From: a virus
Virus record (IMG/VR): IMGVR_UViG_3300008448_000056
Location: 6,568 to 70,567 of that record
DNA length: 64,000 bases
Direction: 5' to 3' (one strand)
Shown here piece by piece: positions 56,806-63,862 of the stretch. The position numbers were made by a program, and so were the translations under genes. The notes below the pieces were generated by a model. That model was not told where the DNA came from. It worked only from the letters and a program-made list of their open reading frames with translations, and made no database searches. The first letter of the stretch is position 1. The number at the start of each line of letters is the position of its first letter.

Positions 56806-57021
56806 TCATACTACTTTTGTTTTGTCGGGGTTCTCGCCTTTGTAGTTGTCCAATGAGGCAACAATCTTCCCAGTGATTGGGAACTTGTCAAGGAACTGCT
56901 TTGGGGAGTAGGACTTCCCCTTATACACATACTTACGTTCTCCGTTAGTATCGTATACATATCCCGCAGTCCGATGAGCGGTCATGTTCTTGCAGTATTC
57001 TGAATAGGTTAATAGCTTCAT
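56806..57021 (-). CDS. hypothetical early protein
   Basis: Operon-packed ORF. Confidence 0.55.
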   Translation of the reverse strand: MKLLTYSEYCKNMTAHRTAGYVYDTNGERKYVYKGKSYSPKQFLDKFPITGKIVASLDNYKGENPDKTKVV

Positions 57022-57230
57022 TGGTTTATCTTTTTTACTTTACGATAGACGGGGAATCCAAACACATAATAGGTTGTCTTTTTGTACCTATCAATCTCGG
57101 GGAAATTCCATACATCGAAATACGTCACGAACTTGTAATAGATTTTCCTATGTGCTATTCGTTCGTGCTTTCTGATGACCGATGGTTTGTCGTGCCAGTA
57201 GGTCATGTCGTCGGGGAAGTGGTTGTCCAT
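57018..57230 (-). CDS. hypothetical early protein
   Basis: ATGA overlap with the next gene. Confidence 0.55.
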   Translation of the reverse strand: MDNHFPDDMTYWHDKPSVIRKHERIAHRKIYYKFVTYFDVWNFPEIDRYKKTTYYVFGFPVYRKVKKINQ

Positions 57231-57248
57231 TGGGTTAGTATTTAAGGG

Positions 57249-57512
57249 TTAATTGTAATTTATTTTTGGCGGTTGAGTTTCGTAAATGATGACATCAAAA
57301 TCCCCTGCCACTCGAGATTCAATTTTAGTTGCAAGTTCCATTGCTTTTGCAAATGCCTTGGGTTCGTAATAGTAGTCATCAACTGAGGCATCAACGTCAA
57401 AGCTGAAACAATCAACGAATCTAAGCGTTTCTTCATTGTCTTGCTCACGATAGTATACCGAGTACTTGGGCTTTTCCCCGATACGTTCAATAAGTTTTAC
57501 TACTGCTTTCAT
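57249..57512 (-). CDS. hypothetical early protein
   Basis: AAAAACAAAACAT leader. Confidence 0.6.
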   Translation of the reverse strand: MKAVVKLIERIGEKPKYSVYYREQDNEETLRFVDCFSFDVDASVDDYYYEPKAFAKAMELATKIESRVAGDFDVIIYETQPPKINYN

Positions 57513-57609
57513 ATGTTTTGTTTTTAAGATTCGGGATATAGTTTATTGTATATGTGGTTAAGTGCTGACCCGATTGCAGCGATTCCCGTCCACATTAGTA
57601 TGAATTTTA

Positions 57610-57837
57610 TTAGCATGGTAGGTCATGTATGATTGCTTGTTTTTGTTTTGGGGTTAACTTATCCGTGAGGTCGATGCCGATACCAGCTATCACTACCTCG
57701 ACCGATAGTAGGTTGATGTCTTCTTCCACGAATGTGTGGATGCCGTGGCACTCCTCGGTACGTGTGGTTCGGGAGTACTCGTAGGTGACAAGGAGTTCTG
57801 CTCCTTCGATGATGTCGGTTTTGAAGTTTGTAGTCAT
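57610..57837 (-). CDS. hypothetical early protein
   Basis: AC-rich leader and upstream CACAATAA..CGTTA motif. Confidence 0.6.
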   Translation of the reverse strand: MTTNFKTDIIEGAELLVTYEYSRTTRTEECHGIHTFVEEDINLLSVEVVIAGIGIDLTDKLTPKQKQAIIHDLPC

Positions 57838-57904
57838 GTGTTTTGTTTTTTATATAACGGGAATTGGTGAGGATTATTGTGCGAGGAATTCATAAAAATA
57901 CTGT

Positions 57905-58123
57905 CTACGTCTTGCCTCGTCGATTTGTTTTTTCAGTAGTTCTATTTTGTTGCGAAGTGCGTACGGATTTGGGGTTTTGCCCGATTCCAATTTGCGAATG
58001 AGTGCTTTGAGTTGTTGTTCTTTTTGTGCCGTTGTCATTGATTGGGTAATTTAATAGTTGGTAAATGTGTGTTATCCATTCGTTGTACGAATTGCATGGG
58101 TGTTCGGGGTATGTGGTTTTCAT
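57905..58123 (-). CDS. hypothetical early protein
   Basis: ATGA overlap with the upstream gene. Confidence 0.4.
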   Translation of the reverse strand: MKTTYPEHPCNSYNEWITHIYQLLNYPINDNGTKRTTTQSTHSQIGIGQNPKSVRTSQQNRTTEKTNRRGKT

Positions 58124-58689
58124 CTTAGTGATTGTTTAAGTTCATCAATTGTGATTCCTGCTTCTTCGCATAGCCATTCGGTGATTGCCTTTACCTCGGA
58201 TTCCCTACAAATAACATCCGATGAGGTGCTGAATACATTGGACGTGGGGGCGAAGGCGAAGATGATTTCGTACGGGCATTCCAATCTGCCTTCCAATACC
58301 TCATCAACAAGGCGGTTGAATTTATGCTTCCAAGGTACGTCATCGTAGTTACCCGTTGACCACCCGCTTGCTAGGTTTGTGTATCCGTCACCGATTTGTG
58401 AGTCCCAGTACCCCCGCCATCCGTCAGTACGGACGTACTTGAATTCAGGAACTGCCTTGCAGTCGGCTTCCTCAAAATATTCGGTATCTTGGTATCCGAA
58501 TTCAGAACACCATAGGTACTTGTCTACTTCCCCTCGCAAAGTGGTAATAACTTGGCATGGATATTCCCATGCTGATTGCTCACAAGATTCGCATATCTCT
58601 TCGCCCGAGCGGGTGAGGTAACTGCCATCGCAATTCGTATCAATCTCCGATTGACAAGATGCACATTTGATGATGTTTGTTGGTTCCAT
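58120..58689 (-). CDS. acidic protein with N-terminal Zn ribbon
   Basis: CASC...CESC; YVRTDGWRGYW; PTSNVFS. Confidence 0.65.
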   Translation of the reverse strand: MEPTNIIKCASCQSEIDTNCDGSYLTRSGEEICESCEQSAWEYPCQVITTLRGEVDKYLWCSEFGYQDTEYFEEADCKAVPEFKYVRTDGWRGYWDSQIGDGYTNLASGWSTGNYDDVPWKHKFNRLVDEVLEGRLECPYEIIFAFAPTSNVFSTSSDVICRESEVKAITEWLCEEAGITIDELKQSLR

Positions 58690-58719
58690 TGTGTGTGTTT
58701 TTTATGGTTTGGGAATTGG

Positions 58720-58938
58720 TTATTTTGTATCAATTGAATATAGATATTCGAGCATACATTCGTATTCGGGTTGGTTGGGGTCATTGTATTTTGAATCGCA
58801 ATACTTCCCGTACTCATCGCATACAATACCATATAATTCATCGTACTCAATCTCGTTTGGGATTACCGCGTTGTACAAATTACTAAACAAGAAGAATGAA
58901 TAGTCGCAGTAAGGTCGGTTCAATGATGTGTTGTTCAT
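58720..58938 (-). CDS. hypothetical early protein
   Basis: AAAACAAAACACC leader. Confidence 0.55.
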   Translation of the reverse strand: MNNTSLNRPYCDYSFFLFSNLYNAVIPNEIEYDELYGIVCDEYGKYCDSKYNDPNQPEYECMLEYLYSIDTK

Positions 58939-58956
58939 GGTGTTTTGTTTTACTGG

Positions 58957-59157
58957 TTATAAAATCATCAGAGATTCAATCTCGTTTTGTAAATACTTGG
59001 TTGCTTGATGAAGTACCTCTTCATCCGATATCCTCAATATATGACCCGAACGAAGTTCGATGTATAGATTGCCGGAATCAGTTAATACTCGGATGTCGTT
59101 TTCTTCCGCAATGGTGTCCAAGCTTAATTTTGCGTAGTTAAGTGTTTTGCTGTTCAT
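58957..59157 (-). CDS. hypothetical early protein
   Basis: AC-rich leader and promoter motif. Confidence 0.6.
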   Translation of the reverse strand: MNSKTLNYAKLSLDTIAEENDIRVLTDSGNLYIELRSGHILRISDEEVLHQATKYLQNEIESLMIL

Positions 59158-59215
59158 AGTGTTTTGTTTTATTGATTAACGAATAAGTAAACAATGTTAT
59201 TGTGTCAGGGAAGTG

Positions 59216-59506
59216 TTAAAGAATAACCCGAATGCGTCTGCCTTGAGTTCCCTCCCATTCAACATTCAGTCCGTTGTTTTTTAGAATGCTCACAATCTCT
59301 TCCCCATTCCCAGCCCAAGCAAGATATACATCTCCGTCTTTGTCCATCCGTTGTTTGTCTTGTGCATGGTAAAATACTGCCCGTTCTGATTTGTCATCGG
59401 GGACTGATGCCCAACCGCACGATTGACAACATTTGTGATTTTGACGTGCGAAATAACCTACTTTGCGTAGTTCTTTGAATGCTTTAGTTAATTGTTCTTT
59501 TTTCAT
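59216..59506 (-). CDS. DUF6891-like protein
   Basis: AFKELRKVG.FARQN..CCQSCG...VFYHAQD...YLAW...GL.VEWEG. Confidence 0.6.
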   Translation of the reverse strand: MKKEQLTKAFKELRKVGYFARQNHKCCQSCGWASVPDDKSERAVFYHAQDKQRMDKDGDVYLAWAGNGEEIVSILKNNGLNVEWEGTQGRRIRVIL

Positions 59507-59545
59507 GGTGTGTTGTTTTTTATATTAACGAATAAGTGTGTCCGA

Positions 59546-59779
59546 TTATTGTGTTAGGGAAGTGTTAATGCTATTTTTTATTTTCCGTACGTACGCAATT
59601 GAGCATTCTGATACGTACGCAAGGAAGTTGACCGAGTGGTCGGTAGTGGAGATTAGTTTCTCCAATACTTCCCGCTTACTACACTCATCACCGCTCAGTA
59701 CTTTGTCAGCGATGAACTGCTCAATTGCTCTTGCTCTCAATGTAGGGAAAGGGTTGTTAAGTGTTGGGTTGTTGTTCAT
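59546..59779 (-). CDS. hypothetical early protein, possible HTH C-terminus
   Basis: Start MNNNP after the leader; SVNFLAYVSECSIAYVRKIK. Confidence 0.5.
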   Translation of the reverse strand: MNNNPTLNNPFPTLRARAIEQFIADKVLSGDECSKREVLEKLISTTDHSVNFLAYVSECSIAYVRKIKNSINTSLTQ

Positions 59780-59807
59780 GGTGGTTTGTTTTATGGTTTG
59801 GGAAATG

Positions 59808-60026
59808 TTAAGAGTGTGCATCGAATTCTTCGTACAATTCCTCTGCGGTCTTTTCATTGAACGTATCATCGTCAAAATAGTAGGCGATTTGTTTATCTAA
59901 TTCCTCTGCATCTCCTTCGAAATTAAGTTCAGCGAGAAGGTCTCCGAGTGTCTCGGTTGCGAATAAGTATCCGTTGTGGCTCTTTACTTGGTAGGTTTCG
60001 CCACGGAAATTGATTGTGTTGTTCAT
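59808..60026 (-). CDS. acidic hypothetical early protein
   Basis: Start MNNTINF after the AC-rich leader. Confidence 0.55.
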   Translation of the reverse strand: MNNTINFRGETYQVKSHNGYLFATETLGDLLAELNFEGDAEELDKQIAYYFDDDTFNEKTAEELYEEFDAHS

Positions 60027-60077
60027 TGTGTTTTGTTTTTTGGTGGGAAGTGTTGACACTCCCCACCGATTAGTTAA

Positions 60078-60248
60078 TTAGAAATCCGATACTTTGTACT
60101 GAACATCATACACATTAGTTGGCTCGTAATACTCATCGTAAGCCTGTTCTAACGCAATGGTGTTAGCATCTTCGATATTGGTTGCCTCTACTTCAATTTC
60201 TTTCATCGCATATTCGATGCGGATTACTTGTACTTTGTACTTTTTCAT
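60078..60248 (-). CDS. 56-aa DpnD/PcfM-like protein (not in ORF track)
   Basis: MKKYKVQV...EIEVEATNIEDA..IA. Confidence 0.6.
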   Translation of the reverse strand: MKKYKVQVIRIEYAMKEIEVEATNIEDANTIALEQAYDEYYEPTNVYDVQYKVSDF

Positions 60249-60285
60249 GGTGTTTTATTTTTTATATAACGGGAATTGTTCCCGA

Positions 60286-60489
60286 TTATTGTGTTAAGAT
60301 GGCTTCGTTTTTTAAATAAAATAACACCCTAACATAAAAATGTATTTGATTTATGTTGTCTATCGCTCCGTGTTCGCTTGATAAATCATTTATCGTTTCG
60401 CTTAATTTATTTTTGAGTTCGTTTATCCCTCCCAATTGCTGTATACCATAATTTGCATAATCGCGAATTTCTTTGTTAGATTTTTTCAT
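60286..60489 (-). CDS. hypothetical early protein
   Basis: AC-rich leader; upstream TTTG-N20-TAACTTAC promoter variant. Confidence 0.55.
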   Translation of the reverse strand: MKKSNKEIRDYANYGIQQLGGINELKNKLSETINDLSSEHGAIDNINQIHFYVRVLFYLKNEAILTQ

Positions 60490-60575
60490 GGTGTTTTGTT
60501 TTTGTGGTTATTAATGTAAGTTACTAAACAACAATATTGATACCAAATTTATTTTGTTAGGGAAGTGTTAAGGTA

Positions 60576-60612
60576 GAAAATGATGGGGGTCAGTACTTCC
60601 CGACCCCCATCG
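60576..60612 (-). terminator. intrinsic terminator after the DUF932 gene
   Basis: GATGGGGGTC-loop-GACCCCCATC-ATTTTCT. Confidence 0.7.
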
Positions 60613-60620
60613 GTCACACA

Positions 60621-61562
60621 CTATGCAAGAGATAAGATGCTATTGAACGCTTGGTTGTCAATTCCCAACCCAGTGCCAACATATTTGGACTCAAGGCGGG
60701 CGTTGTCACGCTTGGGTACGGGTAGCTTGTGGGAAGTGTAGTGTGTCACTCCGCTGAATAGACCCCACAACGTGTCACCCTTGCTACGCATCTCCGTAGC
60801 GATTGATTCCAAGAGTTCGCCCGAGCGGTTGATAGCATATGTGCTATATTGTTCCTTCGCTTGGGAATTGGTGAGGGTGATGTCCACGTCCGTTACTTCC
60901 CGAACAATACGAGCGATGTTTTCCTTGGTCACGGCAACCTCCGAGAGGCGGATAAATTGGTCGAAGATAGACCGCTCTTGGTCAGCAATTCCCACCACTT
61001 GGCGAATGGATGCCTCTACCTTATCGTGGAGCGACTGGGTGTGCTTTGCCGACTGCTGAAGTTCCCGACCCGCTGATGCGAACGTGTTCCGGCAACATAT
61101 GGTGAAGTTTACCGCTCCCCATTTAAGGGCAGTCGTGCCATCGTGTCCGTTGATGCCTGTCACGAACCCTTTCACGGAAGTGCCGTTTTTACCGATGCCT
61201 GTAATCTCGTTGCCTGTGTTCAATTGGAGGTAGACCTTCCCGCCCCCATTGAATGAACCGCCCGAATGGATGCTATAGCCTGTCTTCTCGGAGATGCGGA
61301 TGAGGAGTTCAGCCAGTTCGCTATTTTGAAAGGGAACATAGCCGTCCTTACAGGTAGCGAAGACCTTGCTATTGTCCTCCCGAACGATACCGAAGAAGCC
61401 TGTGCCGTTGCCATTGGGGAGGAGGAGTTCCTGTTTGCTCACTTCCCACCGCAACCCATAACGGTCAAGGAGGTCGGCTACCGCCTCACGATTTTCGGGG
61501 TTGGATACTTGCGTTCCGCTGAACGCGTTGCTGAGGATGTTGTCTGCGATTGTGTTGTTCAT
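60621..61562 (-). CDS. DUF932/TIGR03299 phage-plasmid family protein
   Basis: GLRWEV, YVPFQN.E, GSFNGG.KV, NGHDGT, ICCRNT, KHT, TLWGLFSGVT.Y.SH. Confidence 0.85.
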   Translation of the reverse strand: MNNTIADNILSNAFSGTQVSNPENREAVADLLDRYGLRWEVSKQELLLPNGNGTGFFGIVREDNSKVFATCKDGYVPFQNSELAELLIRISEKTGYSIHSGGSFNGGGKVYLQLNTGNEITGIGKNGTSVKGFVTGINGHDGTTALKWGAVNFTICCRNTFASAGRELQQSAKHTQSLHDKVEASIRQVVGIADQERSIFDQFIRLSEVAVTKENIARIVREVTDVDITLTNSQAKEQYSTYAINRSGELLESIATEMRSKGDTLWGLFSGVTHYTSHKLPVPKRDNARLESKYVGTGLGIDNQAFNSILSLA

Positions 61563-61714
61563 GGTGTGTGTTTTGTGTATTAACGAATAAGGGTGTTTTG
61601 TTATTGTGTTAGGGAAATGTTAAAGGGAAAATTTGTCCGCTATCAAGTTGACCGCTTTAAGGGCGATGAAGAGGACTACGATGAGCCACCAAGGGGAGAG
61701 GTCTTTTTGCTTTT

Positions 61715-61942
61715 TCATTGGTTTGTGTTTTTAGGGTATATATAACTTGAGTTATTGGTGATAAATCCTTCAAAGTGTGCTTCTACACGTTTGTTCCATC
61801 TTTTTTCCGCTATAGAATGAACTCCCGTATACGCTGAAATGAAGTAGAATCTATCGGTGTCCTTTCTCACTTGTATGCCAGAAAATGCAGTATAAACGTG
61901 CGTGGTATTTGCTATCAATTTAGCAATGTTCTCTTTTTTCAT
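61715..61942 (-). CDS. hypothetical early protein
   Basis: ATGA overlap. Confidence 0.55.
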   Translation of the reverse strand: MKKENIAKLIANTTHVYTAFSGIQVRKDTDRFYFISAYTGVHSIAEKRWNKRVEAHFEGFITNNSSYIYPKNTNQ

Positions 61943-62148
61943 TTTGTGGGGGTTTGTTGGTTTTCTAAATAGTCATCGAACTGCTCACCCAATCCGAGAA
62001 TGTTAATAGCCATAGCCAGTCCGTTGTATGTGTCTTGCAACCACCTATGGGTGGCTTTGGTGTTTTTCTTGCTCAATTGGGTGTCAAGGTGCTTCCCTTG
62101 GGCGAATAGGTCAAGGATTTGCTCTTGTGTTACGTTGTACTTTTTCAT
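61939..62148 (-). CDS. hypothetical early protein
   Basis: AAAACACACACACC leader. Confidence 0.6.
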   Translation of the reverse strand: MKKYNVTQEQILDLFAQGKHLDTQLSKKNTKATHRWLQDTYNGLAMAINILGLGEQFDDYLENQQTPTK

Positions 62149-62168
62149 GGTGTGTGTGTTTTAAGGTT

Positions 62169-62214
62169 TGGGAACTGGGAGCGGAATCGAACCGCTCCTT
62201 CAACCATTCAGTTC
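62169..62214 (-). ncRNA. tRNA-like minihelix 1 (T arm plus acceptor, ends C-CCA)
   Basis: GAACTG AATGGTTGAA GGAGCGG TTCGATT CCGCTCC CAGTT C CCA. Confidence 0.6.
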
Positions 62215-62236
62215 GGGGGGGGTATTCCCTCTTAAA

Positions 62237-62386
62237 TTAAAGAAAACGAGCATAGATACGGCGTAAGCCTAACTGACCGCCGAACTTAAAAAGAGCCAAA
62301 ATGAGAAGCCCAATGCCGAATGCAAAGCCAATACTTCCCAAGATTACAATTGCTTCAATTGGTAATGATGCGATGATTTTTTTCAT
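62237..62386 (-). CDS. 49-aa membrane peptide (not in ORF track)
   Basis: MKKIIASLPIEAIVILGSIGFAFGIGLLILALFK... Confidence 0.55.
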   Translation of the reverse strand: MKKIIASLPIEAIVILGSIGFAFGIGLLILALFKFGGQLGLRRIYARFL

Positions 62387-62463
62387 AACGTGTGTGTTTT
62401 ATTGGTTAACGATTGGTTGGTGTGTTTTATTGTGGGGGAAGTGCTGACACTTCCCCCGATTAA

Positions 62464-62643
62464 TCAATCAAGGTCGTTGATGCGTTCACTATCATCTACC
62501 GACTCCGTTATGTATTCGAAGTGATGCTTCTTACATAACTTCTCCAAGGCGGGGAGACAAACCGCATACGTTTCCTCGTCATCGAAAATAGCGACCAATT
62601 CTGCGTACTTGGGGCTGTCCATTTCGAAATAGACCTTTACCAT
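62464..62643 (-). CDS. hypothetical early protein
   Basis: Start MVKVYFE after the AC-rich leader. Confidence 0.6.
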   Translation of the reverse strand: MVKVYFEMDSPKYAELVAIFDDEETYAVCLPALEKLCKKHHFEYITESVDDSERINDLD

Positions 62644-62663
62644 AGTGTGTGTGTTTTGATGAG

Positions 62664-62709
62664 GAACTGATGGCGGGAACGACCCGCCTTCGCTCATTGC
62701 TATCAGTTC
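62664..62709 (-). ncRNA. tRNA-like minihelix 2
   Basis: G AACTGAT AGCAATGAGCGAA GGCGG GTCGTTC CCGCC ATCAGTT C: 7-bp plus 5-bp stems and a 7-nt loop. Confidence 0.55.
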
Positions 62710-62729
62710 TGGGAGGCACGACTAATTAA

Positions 62730-62921
62730 TTAATCTCTTGCGATGTAGTAAACAATTCCCTTCTCATCATCAATCTCCAATTCGTGGTCAATTACGTTGA
62801 TGATGTTTTGGGAATCTTCGTGAGATATGTTCATTCTCACCTGTTCCCGACCTACACTAAGATAGAGTGTGTAGGTAAATGTGTTTAAATCGTAGGACAC
62901 TTGGTCAATTGTTGCTTTCAT
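62730..62921 (-). CDS. hypothetical early protein
   Basis: Leader begins at the hammerhead cleavage site. Confidence 0.6.
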   Translation of the reverse strand: MKATIDQVSYDLNTFTYTLYLSVGREQVRMNISHEDSQNIINVIDHELEIDDEKGIVYYIARD

Positions 62922-62937
62922 AACGTGTGTGTTTTAT

Positions 62938-63012
62938 GGTTAAGACAATGAAGCGGGGGAAGTGTTCCCTCCGCTTCCGTGTTTCGGCTATTTTAAGCCT
63001 CATCAGTTAACC
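62938..63012 (-). ncRNA. hammerhead ribozyme
   Basis: GGUUAA CUGAUGA GGCU-UAAAAU-AGCC GAA ACA...GAAGCGG/CCGCUUC...UGU C|UUAACC: full consensus core, stems I-III, GUC site at 62944. Confidence 0.88.
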
Positions 63013-63249
63013 TCGGTACAACAATTGCAAATCTGCTAATGGGTTGCCGTTTTTGTCGCTCATTGTGTATATCCTTTTACCTTTGAATGGTAGAGGTGCT
63101 GGTTCGTTTCGGTCAGACCCTATGTAGTGAATTCCCGCAAAATTATACAACCAAAGGCTGTTTTTTTCTGAGGTCAATCTTATTTGCGAATTCGGTAAAA
63201 GGTGTTGGGCTTTGATTTTTGCAAGGTGCAAAATTTGCTCGGTAGTCAT
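63007..63249 (-). CDS. 80-aa first early protein, bracketed by two hammerhead sites
   Basis: AC-rich leader; its last codons GGT TAA form stem I of the ribozyme. Confidence 0.65.
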   Translation of the reverse strand: MTTEQILHLAKIKAQHLLPNSQIRLTSEKNSLWLYNFAGIHYIGSDRNEPAPLPFKGKRIYTMSDKNGNPLADLQLLYRG

Positions 63250-63313
63250 ATGTGTGTGTTTTATGGTTAAGACACGGATTCAAGTTTAACCCGAAGGTCA
63301 GAGGCTTGGTCAT

Positions 63314-63385
63314 TCAAAGAGCGGTGGGGTATCATCCCCTCATCAACAATACAAATATACACCCGATTAACTACTAAACAATAGA
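63314..63385 (-). promoter_or_regulatory. early promoter with boxB-like hairpin and boxA-like site
   Basis: TTG-N19-TATATTTG (63359-63352); GGGG-ATGATA-CCCC; CGCTCTTTGA (63323-63314). Confidence 0.6.
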
Positions 63386-63500
63386 AAAAGCCAACTATTT
63401 TGTTAAAGAAAAGTTAACAAAAACGGATAAAATTGACCAATTTTGTATGTGGTTGATAATCAATGATTTATAAGGTCAAAAAATGCCATTTCCTCAAATT

Positions 63501-63862
63501 TCGATTATCTCGGTGCGGGTAAGGGTGTAATACCAAAAAAAAGATACGCGAAATTTGGGGTGTTTCCGTGCGTTTAAAACGATTTTGATTTACAATGGAA
63601 TTTCTGTTAAAATATTCCTAAACAACTAAACAAGGAATATGACAAATATGTCACAATTGAGATTACCAAATATTTTTTGCGTATTTGCAAAACTTTAACA
63701 TTTGGGGTGTTTTTTAAGTAAAAATACTTAGCCGTTTATTTGCCCAAGGTTCGATTATCTACTAAACAATAAGGGTAAGATACCACAAAAAAGATACGCG
63801 AAATTTGGTGCGTTTACGTGCGTCTCATTCGATTTCGATTTGCCAAACATTTTCTGTTAAAA
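63501..63862. repeat. two imperfect 112-bp direct repeats
   Basis: 63501-63612 and 63751-63862 align without gaps (TCGATTATCT...AAGATACGCGAAATTTGG...TTTCTGTTAAAA). Confidence 0.9.

What the first reader, a model, noticed from the sequence alone, without database searches (positions are those of the whole stretch)
62938..63278. One hammerhead core with two cleavage sites bracketing an ORF: a possible self-excising, self-circularising phage mRNA
Seen: a complete hammerhead core (GGUUAA CUGAUGA GGCU/AGCC GAA ACACGGA) starts at the stop codon of ORF 63249-63007. The 23-nt sequence UGUC|UUAACCAUAAAACACACAC occurs twice, with cut sites at 63271/63270 (before the ORF) and 62944/62943 (after the core), 327 nt apart. 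The upstream site UCCGUGU-C-UUAACC pairs perfectly with the core arms: 7-bp stem III and 6-bp stem I, a type III fold with the whole ORF in loop I. The downstream site gives a type I fold with a local stem III. Established: hammerheads cut after NUH, leave 5'-OH and 2',3'-cyclic phosphate, and can ligate. Inference: two cuts release a 327-nt RNA whose ends refold in the ligation geometry, giving a covalently closed, exonuclease-resistant mRNA for the first early protein. The next gene receives a 5'-OH leader. Retrozymes use two full ribozymes; I do not know of a single-core, two-site ORF cassette in a dsDNA phage.
Basis: partly seen in the sequence, partly recalled or inferred. Interest (0 to 1): 0.95.

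Follow-up and report, generated by a model that had tools for sequence, protein, structure and literature searches.

The report
Phage hammerhead ribozyme with orphan upstream half-site
A genuine self-cutting hammerhead RNA of a known type ends the first early gene of this uncultured phage. The second "cut site" upstream is a real, perfectly matching half-hammerhead that sits at a junction where gene cassettes are swapped, and nothing yet shows that it is cut or that the gene's message becomes a circle.

Summary
There is one complete type I hammerhead at 63012-62938 on the minus strand. A 23-nt exact repeat occurs twice. The upstream site pairs perfectly with both ribozyme arms (6 + 7 bp), and the two GUC sites lie 327 nt apart.

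The hammerhead is real and of a known kind. It is the only core in the 70.6-kb genome; 1 of 200 shuffles gave one. Close relatives keep it, with compensatory stem II changes. Sister type I hammerheads sit between genes in other phage contigs.

The circular-mRNA reading has no support beyond the complementarity.
- Thirteen of the 23 repeated bases are the AC-rich leader found before 8 early genes.
- The rest is the 3' half of a hammerhead whose stem III helix (ACACGGA/UCCGUGU) occurs whole in other phages.
- Relatives carry three different cargo ORFs between the same leader and hammerhead.
- Homology breaks fall exactly at the repeats.
- One relative (L123) keeps ORF and hammerhead but has no upstream site.
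- Thermodynamic folding gives the long-range fold a probability of 0.012 or less.
- No RNA data were available.

Cutting at the upstream site remains chemically possible (about 0.25). A circle is unlikely (under 0.1). Earlier unchecked notes of this scan reported one-core, many-site hammerheads in other phages.

The parts
63352..63359 (-). Promoter-like TAtaTTTG box. L003, L004 and L123 have TAtcTTTG at the same place. It marks the likely start of the early transcript a few bases downstream.
   Evidence: Sequence. That TAnnTTTG is a Bacteroidota -7 box is recalled knowledge, not a tool result.
63279..63347 (-). Long leader, about 70 nt. It holds hairpin GGGG-AUGAUA-CCCC and hairpin GACC-UUCG-GGUU. 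It is present in the window, L003, L004 and the X9 contig and absent from L123. Its function is unknown.
   Evidence: 13 of 73 columns differ from L003. Hairpin 2 changes G-U to G-C in L003. The leader AUG at 63313 is lost in L003, so it is not coding.
63265..63278 (-). Upstream orphan half-hammerhead (site 1): UCCGUGU (complement of the stem III arm), C (63271), UUAACC (complement of the stem I arm).
   Evidence: Pairs printed. Arm scan gives stem I 6 and stem III 7, next best in the genome 6 + 3.
63252..63274 (-). Copy 1 of the 23-nt exact repeat: the end of the half-site plus the AC-rich leader of ORF80.
63007..63249 (-). ORF80, an 80-aa protein of no known family. It is the cargo gene between the repeats. 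Its last codons (GGU UAA) are the 5' strand of stem I.
   Evidence: Homologues at 91% and 71% identity. 0 Pfam families. 243 of 243 bases identical in L003.
62938..63012 (-). Complete type I hammerhead ribozyme: stem I 63012-63007 / 62943-62938; core CUGAUGA 63006-63000; stem II 62999-62986; GAA 62985-62983; stem III 62982-62945, with a 2x2 internal loop and a long hairpin. Predicted cut after C62944.
   Evidence: Stem II compensatory changes in L003.
62925..62947 (-). Copy 2 of the 23-nt repeat: UGUC, UUAACC and the AC-rich leader of ORF63. Homology with L003 ends at its 3' edge.
62730..62921 (-). ORF63, the downstream cistron here. In the X9 contigs it is the cargo directly behind the long leader and is itself followed by a hammerhead.

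Best explanation
A canonical type I (open stem I) hammerhead ribozyme is fused to the 3' end of the first early cistron. It most likely cuts its own local site after GUC (62944/62943). This separates the ORF80 message from the next cistron and leaves that cistron with a 5'-OH and the short AC-rich leader that most early genes of this phage carry.

The upstream 'second site' is the 3' half of a sister or ancestral hammerhead: the 3' strand of stem III, GUC, the 3' strand of stem I, and the shared leader. It is joined to a promoter-proximal leader of about 70 nt. Sister hammerheads in one phage share their arms, so such a half is a perfect substrate by descent, not by design.

The two repeats are the conserved flanks at which ORF (+ hammerhead) cassettes are exchanged between related phages by homologous recombination.

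Shown: the sequence anatomy, conservation and compensatory change of the hammerhead, cargo swapping and break points at the repeats, and a relative without the upstream site.
Inferred: self-cleavage itself, the 5'-OH product, the recombination mechanism, and that upstream cutting is at most minor.
For: (1) The hammerhead is real.
- It is the only CUGANGA..GAAA core in 70.6 kb.
- The strict descriptor gives 1 real hit; 1 of 200 shuffles gave one.
- L003 has an identical ORF80 (243 of 243 bases), yet stem II is GCCG/CGGC instead of GGCU/AGCC. Two pairs are changed on both sides, and 6 of 14 columns differ.
- N7 varies U/A and the core is otherwise invariant in L003, L004 and L123.
- In X9 one haplotype reads GAUUAA|CUGAUGA and the commoner one GGUUAA|CUGAUGA, which restores the sixth stem I pair.

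(2) It is a known kind. 11 distinct type I hammerheads with a 6-bp stem I and the same stem II/loop family lie between genes in the phage contigs held. Perreault 2011 describes hammerheads flanking single genes in prophages, with cleavage shown in vitro (PMC3088659, passages).

(3) The repeat is made of shared modules.
- AAACACAC precedes 8 minus-strand start codons and occurs 0 times on the plus strand.
- UUAACC-AAUAAAACACACAC-GUUAUG recurs at 62409-62384 with no GUC.
- The helix ACACGGA/UCCGUGU occurs whole in other hammerheads. 13 of 25 loci found by that pattern show a CUGAYGA core in the printed flank, including type I L151/L152.
- The sister hammerheads of L002 share stem I and 4 bp of stem III.

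(4) Cassette exchange.
- ORF80 (window, L003), ORF-Y (L004) and ORF63 (X9) each lie between the same leader and hammerhead.
- The downstream genes differ.
- Identity to L003 is 0 mismatches from 63278 to 63000, against 13 of 73 in the leader and 84 of 195 downstream.

(5) L123 keeps ORF-Y and the hammerhead behind the same promoter but has a short leader without the half-site (best arm match there 6 + 3).

(6) Folding.
- The local fold is -104.7 kcal/mol (MFE -104.9) and the long-range fold -95.5.
- The probability of the long-range stems is 0.012 or less before site 2 is made and about 0 after. Local stem I is at 0.6-0.8.
Against: - The upstream complementarity is perfect (13 bp around GUC), which is the classic design of a trans-cleaving hammerhead. 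The local stem III is weakened by a 2x2 internal loop in all four relatives, which would favour competition by the upstream site.
- Every haplotype that has the long leader also has a hammerhead straight after its first cistron (window, L003, L004, and X9 by unitig overlap), with three different cargos. In each genome examined this is the only hammerhead. That pattern is also what a functional leader/ribozyme pair would give.
- The one relative without the site (L123) has a substitution in the arm (ACACGUA).
- Nearest-neighbour folding ignores hammerhead tertiary contacts, ribosomes and co-transcriptional kinetics.
- No cleavage data of any kind were available.
- The relatives are close, and site 1 lies inside the recently exchanged tract, so its invariance is uninformative either way.
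Confidence: 0.55

Rival explanations
1. Substrate-only site used as a 5'-end generator. The downstream core pairs with the upstream half-site, forming a discontinuous hammerhead with ORF80 in loop I, and cuts off the structured leader of about 75 nt. ORF80 then gets the same 5'-OH UUAACC-AC-rich leader as the next cistron, and the leader may be released as a small RNA. No circle is needed.
For: - Perfect 6 + 7 bp match, unique in the genome.
- The same 3' flank lies at both sites, so any stem I / loop II contact is equal.
- The architecture leader + site / cargo / hammerhead is kept with three cargos.
- Other promoters of these phages feed short AC-rich leaders directly, so a long leader might need removal.
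- Discontinuous hammerheads with large loop I insertions exist in mammalian Clec2 mRNAs (review PMC2950038, passages).
- Earlier unchecked notes of this scan describe one-core, 9- or 14-site layouts in other phages.
Against: - L123 manages without the site.
- The long-range fold is 9.2 kcal/mol worse, with probability 0.012 or less.
- After local cleavage stem III stays closed by its own hairpin.
- There is no covariation between site and arm, because all carriers are near-identical there.
- The co-occurrence is equally expected if leader and hammerhead are simply the conserved flanks used for cargo exchange.
Confidence: 0.25
2. Both sites are cut. The 327-nt ORF80 RNA refolds with its own 5' UUAACC in stem I and is ligated, by the ribozyme or by a host RtcB-type ligase, into a covalently closed, exonuclease-resistant mRNA.
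For: - The geometry is correct. After two cuts the fragment's 5'-OH end can occupy stem I next to C17 with its 2',3'-cyclic phosphate (sequence).
- Hammerheads ligate, and hammerhead-bounded RNAs are circularised in viroids and retrozymes (review PMC6765202, passages; PMC5680766, abstract only).
Against: - Everything listed against upstream cutting applies here too.
- Stem I is only 6 AU-rich pairs.
- The ORF has a stop codon, so a circle brings no obvious translational gain.
- Perreault 2011 report that they could not detect circular or spliced products from hammerhead-flanked prophage genes (data not shown in that paper).
- The cargo ORFs differ, so no property of ORF80 is tied to the layout.
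Confidence: 0.07
3. The hammerhead-like sequence is inactive or only a structural or recombination element, for example a 3' stabilising structure, and neither site is cut.
For: - No hit reaches an Rfam gathering score.
- No obvious stem I / loop II pseudoknot.
- The proximal local stem III has only 3 pairs.
- More distant relatives lack any such core (0 of 6 loci; 0 of 5 whole records).
Against: - All 11 catalytic core positions are intact and invariant in four diverged copies, while the stems change compensatorily.
- GUC is at position 17 in 11 of 11 family members.
- Rfam also misses the textbook copies.
- Comparable prophage hammerheads cleave in vitro and in E. coli.
Confidence: 0.06

Closest known systems
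Clustered hammerhead ribozymes flanking single genes in prophage and phage operons (Perreault et al. 2011, PMC3088659; passages read)
   Same: - Consensus hammerhead core, placed between small phage genes whose identity is not constant.
- Proposed role of cutting long phage transcripts into gene-length mRNAs.
- Those authors already raised circular or spliced products as a possibility.
   Different: - Here there is one complete ribozyme per genome instead of two or three. It overlaps the stop codon of the first early cistron.
- A ribozyme-less 3' half with perfectly matching arms lies upstream of the gene.
Discontinuous hammerhead in mammalian Clec2 3' UTRs (Martick et al. 2008, known to me through the review PMC2950038; passages read)
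   Same: The upstream site and the core would form one hammerhead, with substrate and enzyme strands separated by a long insertion in loop I (about 250 nt here).
   Different: - In Clec2 the distant strand is the only substrate, and the arrangement is conserved across mammals and was shown to cleave.
- Here a local substrate competes, one relative lacks the distant strand, and nothing has been assayed.
Retrozymes and viroid-like circular RNAs with hammerheads (PMC5680766, abstract only; PMC6765202, passages)
   Same: Unit-length RNA bounded by two hammerhead cleavage sites, with 5'-OH and 2',3'-cyclic phosphate ends that ligases can close.
   Different: - Those elements carry a full ribozyme at each end or in each repeat unit, are non-coding or replicate through RNA, and their circles have been observed.
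- Here there is one core, a protein-coding cargo in a dsDNA phage, and no RNA evidence.
Earlier notes of this scan: one hammerhead core with 9 or 14 matching sites (e1-5919357, e1-3293241/-3293240), and ribozyme-less hammerhead halves at cassette junctions (e1-6084152). These are AI notes, unchecked by me.
   Same: Substrate-only or half-hammerhead sequences that match a nearby core, lying before small early genes of uncultured phages.
   Different: - Here there is a single extra site, not an array (2 copies of TGTCTTAACC in this genome and in L004's record).
- The halves of e1-6084152 were described as the other (back) half, reused as ribosome-binding sites.

Membership tests
Hammerhead ribozyme (type I) | Conserved core C3 U4 G5 A6 N7 G8 A9 ... 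G12 A13 A14 | tested here: met
   CUGAUGA at 63006-63000 and GAA at 62985-62983. Same core, with N7 = U or A, in L003, L004 and L123.
Hammerhead ribozyme (type I) | Three helices around the core, with G10.1-C11.1 and A15.1-U16.1 closing pairs; stem I open | tested here: met
   Stem I 6 bp, stem II 4 bp, stem III 3 bp, then a 2x2 loop and a long helix.
Hammerhead ribozyme (type I) | Cleavage triplet NUH (H not G) at position 17 | tested here: met
   GUC at both sites. C17 in 11 of 11 family members found by descriptor.
Hammerhead ribozyme (type I) | Helices kept by compensatory change in homologues | tested here: met
   Window versus L003 (homology set by an identical flanking ORF, not by the descriptor): stem II GGCU/AGCC becomes GCCG/CGGC. 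The 11-member table also shows several pair types per position, but those rows were selected for pairing.
Hammerhead ribozyme (type I) | Score at or above the Rfam gathering threshold (clan CL00010) | tested here: inconclusive
   0 hits at gathering. Hammerhead_3 scores 16 bits against 48.5. The clean hammerheads of L001 and L002 also give 0 hits.
Hammerhead ribozyme (type I) | Self-cleavage giving 5'-OH and 2',3'-cyclic phosphate | not testable with these tools
   No RNA run holds the stretch. Needs an in vitro transcription assay.
Discontinuous (split-strand) hammerhead | A distant substrate strand complementary to both arms around NUH | tested here: met
   UCCGUGU-C-UUAACC pairs 7 + 6 bp. 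6 + 8 in L003 and 6 + 7 in L004.
Discontinuous (split-strand) hammerhead | The distant strand is conserved together with the core in relatives, ideally with covariation | tested here: not met
   L123 has the core but no distant strand. The carriers are identical over site and arms, so there is no covariation.
Discontinuous (split-strand) hammerhead | The long-range fold is competitive with alternative folds | tested here: not met
   -95.5 against -104.7 kcal/mol. Pair probability 0.012 or less. This is a thermodynamic model only.
Hammerhead-bounded circular RNA (viroid-like / retrozyme-like) | A circular RNA or head-to-tail junction is observed | not testable with these tools
   No RNA holder listed. 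The only skip joint seen is in a run guessed to be DNA that has zero depth over ORF80.
Hammerhead-bounded circular RNA (viroid-like / retrozyme-like) | A complete ribozyme at each unit boundary | tested here: not met
   One core in the genome. The upstream boundary has only the substrate half.

The most novel reading that the evidence does not exclude
A natural one-core, two-site hammerhead in a dsDNA phage. The core behind the first early gene first cuts the matching half-site 250 nt upstream, as a discontinuous hammerhead with the ORF in loop I, and then its own site. This releases a cargo-independent 'excision cassette'. Its 327-nt mRNA has ends held in ligation geometry and is closed into a circle, while the structured leader of about 75 nt is freed as a small RNA. 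The conserved leader / cargo / hammerhead layout with three different cargos would then be a portable expression module.
Probability: 0.08. Interest if true: 0.85.

Novelty: new member of a known kind. Interest (0 to 1): 0.4.

Why it matters
Hammerheads are common between phage genes, but their purpose is still open (review PMC6765202).

This locus is a compact natural test case. It has one ribozyme, one local substrate and one perfect distant substrate in the same transcript. Natural variants swap the cargo gene or lack the distant site.

A single in vitro transcription experiment would tell whether a phage hammerhead can use a second, remote site. If it can, that would link this locus to the one-core, many-site layouts noted elsewhere in this scan, and it would make the circular-RNA idea raised in 2011 directly testable.

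If it cannot, the locus still shows that hammerhead ends and shared leaders serve as recombination junctions for early-gene cassettes.

Tried and rejected
- Rfam scans. Gathering mode over the whole window gave 0 hits. E-value mode over 62600-63600 gave only weak sraA and Hammerhead_3 matches. Gathering mode over 11 loci gave 0 hits. All are uninformative, because clean hammerheads are missed.
- RNA evidence. No RNA holder is listed among the 21 runs, so expression, ends and circular junctions could not be examined.
- The leader as a ribozyme of its own. UUGAUGA-GGGG..CCCC is not followed by GAA, the whole genome has no second core, and alignment of leaders with hammerheads shows homology only from (G/U)UGUC onward. 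Rejected.
- A leader ORF (AUG at 63313, 56 aa). The AUG is lost in L003. Rejected.
- The upstream GGUUAA (63291-63286) as a stem I relic or decoy. It reads GGUCAA in L003 and belongs to the hairpin GACC-UUCG-GGUU. Not supported.
- My first reading of the X9 skip joint was 'site without core'. Withdrawn: other X9 contigs show ORF63 followed at once by a hammerhead (note).
- Invariance of site 1 as a sign of selection. Rejected, because it lies inside a 0-mismatch exchange tract.
- Searches for more relatives:
  - ORF80 and ORF63 in viral contigs gave 0 relatives.
  - The phages collection by blastn gave no match.
  - The 14-mer CCAAGCCTCTGACC gave 118 or more hits, nearly all by chance. Only L003 and L004 match by blastn among the 121 loci then held.
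  - The longer leader pattern gave L004 plus one chance hit, L131.
  - Genome contigs gave 0 with the ORF80 alignment and 0 with the arm-specific hammerhead pattern.
- Pfam: 0 families for ORF80, ORF63 and the next small ORF; DUF932 for the 313-aa neighbour.
P0002 lacks the last three residues (YRG) that overlap stem I. It would have been the most informative relative.
- Supplementary files of Perreault 2011 (figures S1-S3 on tandem arrangements) were not seen.

Full report
WHAT IS THERE. On the minus strand the early transcript reads, in order:
- a TAtaTTTG box (63359-63352);
- a leader of about 70 nt with two hairpins;
- UCCGUGUC|UUAACC (63278-63265, cut position 63271/63270);
- the AC-rich stretch AUAAAACACACAC;
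- ORF80 (63249-63007);
- a complete hammerhead. Its parts are GGUUAA (63012-63007, containing the stop codon), CUGAUGA, GGCU-UAAAAU-AGCC, GAA, ACACGGA, an 11-bp bulged hairpin, UCAUUGU, C62944|UUAACC (62943-62938);
- the same AC-rich stretch again, and ORF63 (62921-62730).

The 23-mer is present exactly twice, and none of 100 shuffles reached that. The sites are 327 nt apart.

THE HAMMERHEAD IS GENUINE.
- It is the only CUGANGA-hairpin-GAAA core in the whole 70,567-nt record, on both strands.
- A strict type I descriptor (stem I 6 or more, stem II 4 or more, stem III 3 or more) finds it, and finds anything in only 1 of 200 dinucleotide shuffles.
- L003 is a metagenome contig with an ORF80 identical at 243 of 243 bases. 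There stem II reads GCCG-UCAAU-CGGC instead of GGCU-UAAAAU-AGCC. Two base pairs are changed on both sides, the distal stem III is rewritten but still pairs, and the core and both arms are unchanged.
- L004 (= L122) and L123 (= L124) keep the ribozyme with N7 = A.
- Identical stem II sequences led to IMG/VR contigs L001 and L002. These carry two and three clean type I hammerheads between consecutive genes.
- In all, 11 distinct type I hammerheads with a 6-bp stem I and GUC at the site were parsed from the loci held. The pairing in that table is by construction of the descriptor.
- Rfam 15 reports nothing at gathering score and only 16 bits for Hammerhead_3. It also misses the textbook copies in L001 and L002, so the blank is a sensitivity limit.
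- This is the class described by Perreault et al. 2011: hammerheads that flank individual, non-constant genes in prophages and cut long transcripts in vitro and in E. coli (PMC3088659, passages read).

WHAT THE UPSTREAM SITE IS.
- The complementarity is real: 7 bp with ACACGGA and 6 bp with GGUUAA (pairs printed). In a genome-wide scan for sites matching the arms it stands alone; the next best is 6 + 3 with wobbles.
- But the two copies are homologous modules, not a chance or purpose-built match.
- Thirteen of the 23 bases are the AC-rich leader. AAACACAC lies just before 8 start codons on the minus strand and never on the plus strand.
- A third copy, UUAACC-AAUAAAACACACAC-GUUAUG, precedes the gene at 62386 without any GUC.
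- The remaining bases, with the four that extend the match, are the 3' half of a hammerhead. Written as UC[CG]UGUC against UC[AU]UGUC, the local site is the same helix with two mismatches.
- The perfect helix ACACGGA/UCCGUGU exists whole in other phage hammerheads. A pattern for it returned 25 loci, and in 13 of them a CUGAYGA core is visible in the printed flanks. These include the type I ribozyme of L151/L152, which has the same stem II family.
- Sister hammerheads within one phage share arms. In L002 each core matches the other's site with 6 + 4 bp.
- So a 3' half left over from a sister copy would automatically be a perfect substrate for its neighbour.

THE REPEATS ARE EXCHANGE JUNCTIONS.
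- Window and L003: 0 mismatches from the 5' edge of site 1 to CUGAUGA (63278-63000). Against that, 13 of 73 columns differ in the leader, 6 of 14 in stem II, and 84 of 195 (plus 55 gap columns) beyond the second repeat, where L003 has a different gene.
- L004: the window-type leader and site 1, then a different ORF (ORF-Y, 75 aa) that reads into the ribozyme, then the hammerhead, then the L003-type downstream gene.
- DNA-run contigs laid on the window. In run X9 a 289-nt contig joins the leader and site 1 directly to ORF63. Two further contigs show ORF63 followed at once by an L003-type hammerhead. They overlap the first by 30 nt, so the linkage is inferred. X9 has zero depth over ORF80.
- In run X1 the hammerhead itself has 570-730 summed depth against about 28-37 on its flanks, and the contigs diverge on both sides. 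Many genomes in that sample therefore share this ribozyme.
- Three cargos (ORF80, ORF-Y, ORF63) thus sit between the same leader and ribozyme, and several downstream genes follow the second repeat.
- The more distant relatives, with 59-75% identity in the neighbouring DUF932 protein, have no such core: 0 of 6 loci and 0 of 5 whole records.

THE KEY COUNTER-EXAMPLE. L123 shares the promoter, ORF-Y and the hammerhead with L004. Between the TAtcTTTG box and the AC-rich leader it has only about 25 nt, and no UCCGUGUC-UUAACC. The best arm match anywhere in that locus is 6 + 3. The ribozyme is therefore kept without the upstream site. It does not prove that the site is unused where it exists, and in L123 the arm reads ACACGUA, which fits relaxed constraint as well as drift (n = 1).

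FOLDING.
- For a 441-nt transcript the local type I fold is essentially the MFE (-104.7 against -104.9 kcal/mol). Forcing the long-range fold costs 9.2 kcal/mol (-95.5).
- In nascent transcripts that end before site 2 is made, the mean pair probability of the long-range stems is 0.012 or less. Once site 2 exists it is about 0, while local stem I is at 0.6-0.8.
- After local cleavage stem III stays closed by its own hairpin.
- These are equilibrium nearest-neighbour estimates. They ignore tertiary contacts, ribosomes and kinetics, so they count as weak evidence.

- Thirteen perfect pairs around GUC are exactly what an engineered trans-cleaving hammerhead uses.
- The local stem III is imperfect in all relatives.
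- Every haplotype with the long leader has the genome's only hammerhead right after its first cistron.
- Discontinuous hammerheads exist (review PMC2950038).
- Earlier, unchecked notes of this scan report one-core, many-site layouts in other phages.
- I therefore keep about 0.25 for real cutting at the upstream site and 0.07 for the full circular-mRNA model.
- Perreault et al. state that they looked for spliced or circular products of hammerhead-flanked genes and detected none.
- My literature searches found no description of a single-core, two-site ORF cassette in a phage. The searches were: 'hammerhead ribozyme' + bacteriophage + 'circular RNA', 89 papers, 15 listed; 'discontinuous hammerhead', 43 papers; two further term sets. 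These searches cover open-access text only.

VERDICT.
- Observation: confirmed.
- The ribozyme is an ordinary new member of the phage type I hammerheads.
- The upstream site is best read as an orphan half-hammerhead at a cassette junction.
- One in vitro transcription experiment would settle it.

Noticed in passing
window 62709-62664 (-) and 62214-62169 (-): Two tRNA-like minihelices lie in early intergenic spacers. Each has an acceptor-like stem (GAACUGAU/AUCAGUUC; GAACUG/CAGUUC), a 10-13-nt linker in place of the D and anticodon arms, and a T-arm-like hairpin. The second has AGCGG-UUCGAUU-CCGCU and ends ...C-CCA. ARAGORN calls no tRNA. Rfam matches only the T-arm, to a tmRNA model at 13 bits. 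In L003 the outer stem of the first element changes U-A to G-C. ORF63 is followed by this element in the window but by a hammerhead in X9, so the two kinds of element look interchangeable as 3' or processing modules.
   Followed up: partly
window 63279-63347 (-): A structured leader of about 70 nt lies between promoter and half-site. It is conserved in L003, L004 and X9 and absent in L123. It has a 5' hairpin GGGG-loop-CCCC (the loop varies) and a hairpin GACC-UUCG-GGUU (CACG loop and G-C closing pair in L003). It has no Rfam match and no conserved ORF. Its function is unknown. It would be released as a small RNA if the half-site were cut.
   Followed up: partly
window 57000-63300 (-), e.g. 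63261, 62934, 62656, 62399, 62161, 61573, 58700: The AC-rich motif AAAACACAC(A) lies 2-5 nt before 8 start codons on the minus strand and never on the plus strand. It is probably the translation-initiation leader of the early genes in a host without Shine-Dalgarno use. The TAnnTTTG boxes suggest a Bacteroidota host, but that is recalled knowledge.
   Followed up: partly
X9 contigs laid at window 62735/63011 and 62730: Two haplotypes join ORF63 to the hammerhead. One uses the gene's own GAU UAA as stem I (5 of 6 pairs). The commoner one has GGU UAA (6 of 6 pairs), changing the last residue from Asp to Gly. This looks like a coding change that restores a ribozyme base pair.
   Followed up: no
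L123/L124 (IMG/VR record, 15,484 nt): The record is classed as having inverted terminal repeats, and the same region was returned in both orientations. It may be a palindromic assembly, so only its local sequence was used.
   Followed up: no
window 60621-61562 (-): The 313-aa neighbour is a DUF932 protein (E = 1e-22). It is conserved at 59-94% identity in 9 IMG/VR loci and served as the anchor for finding relatives.
   Followed up: partly
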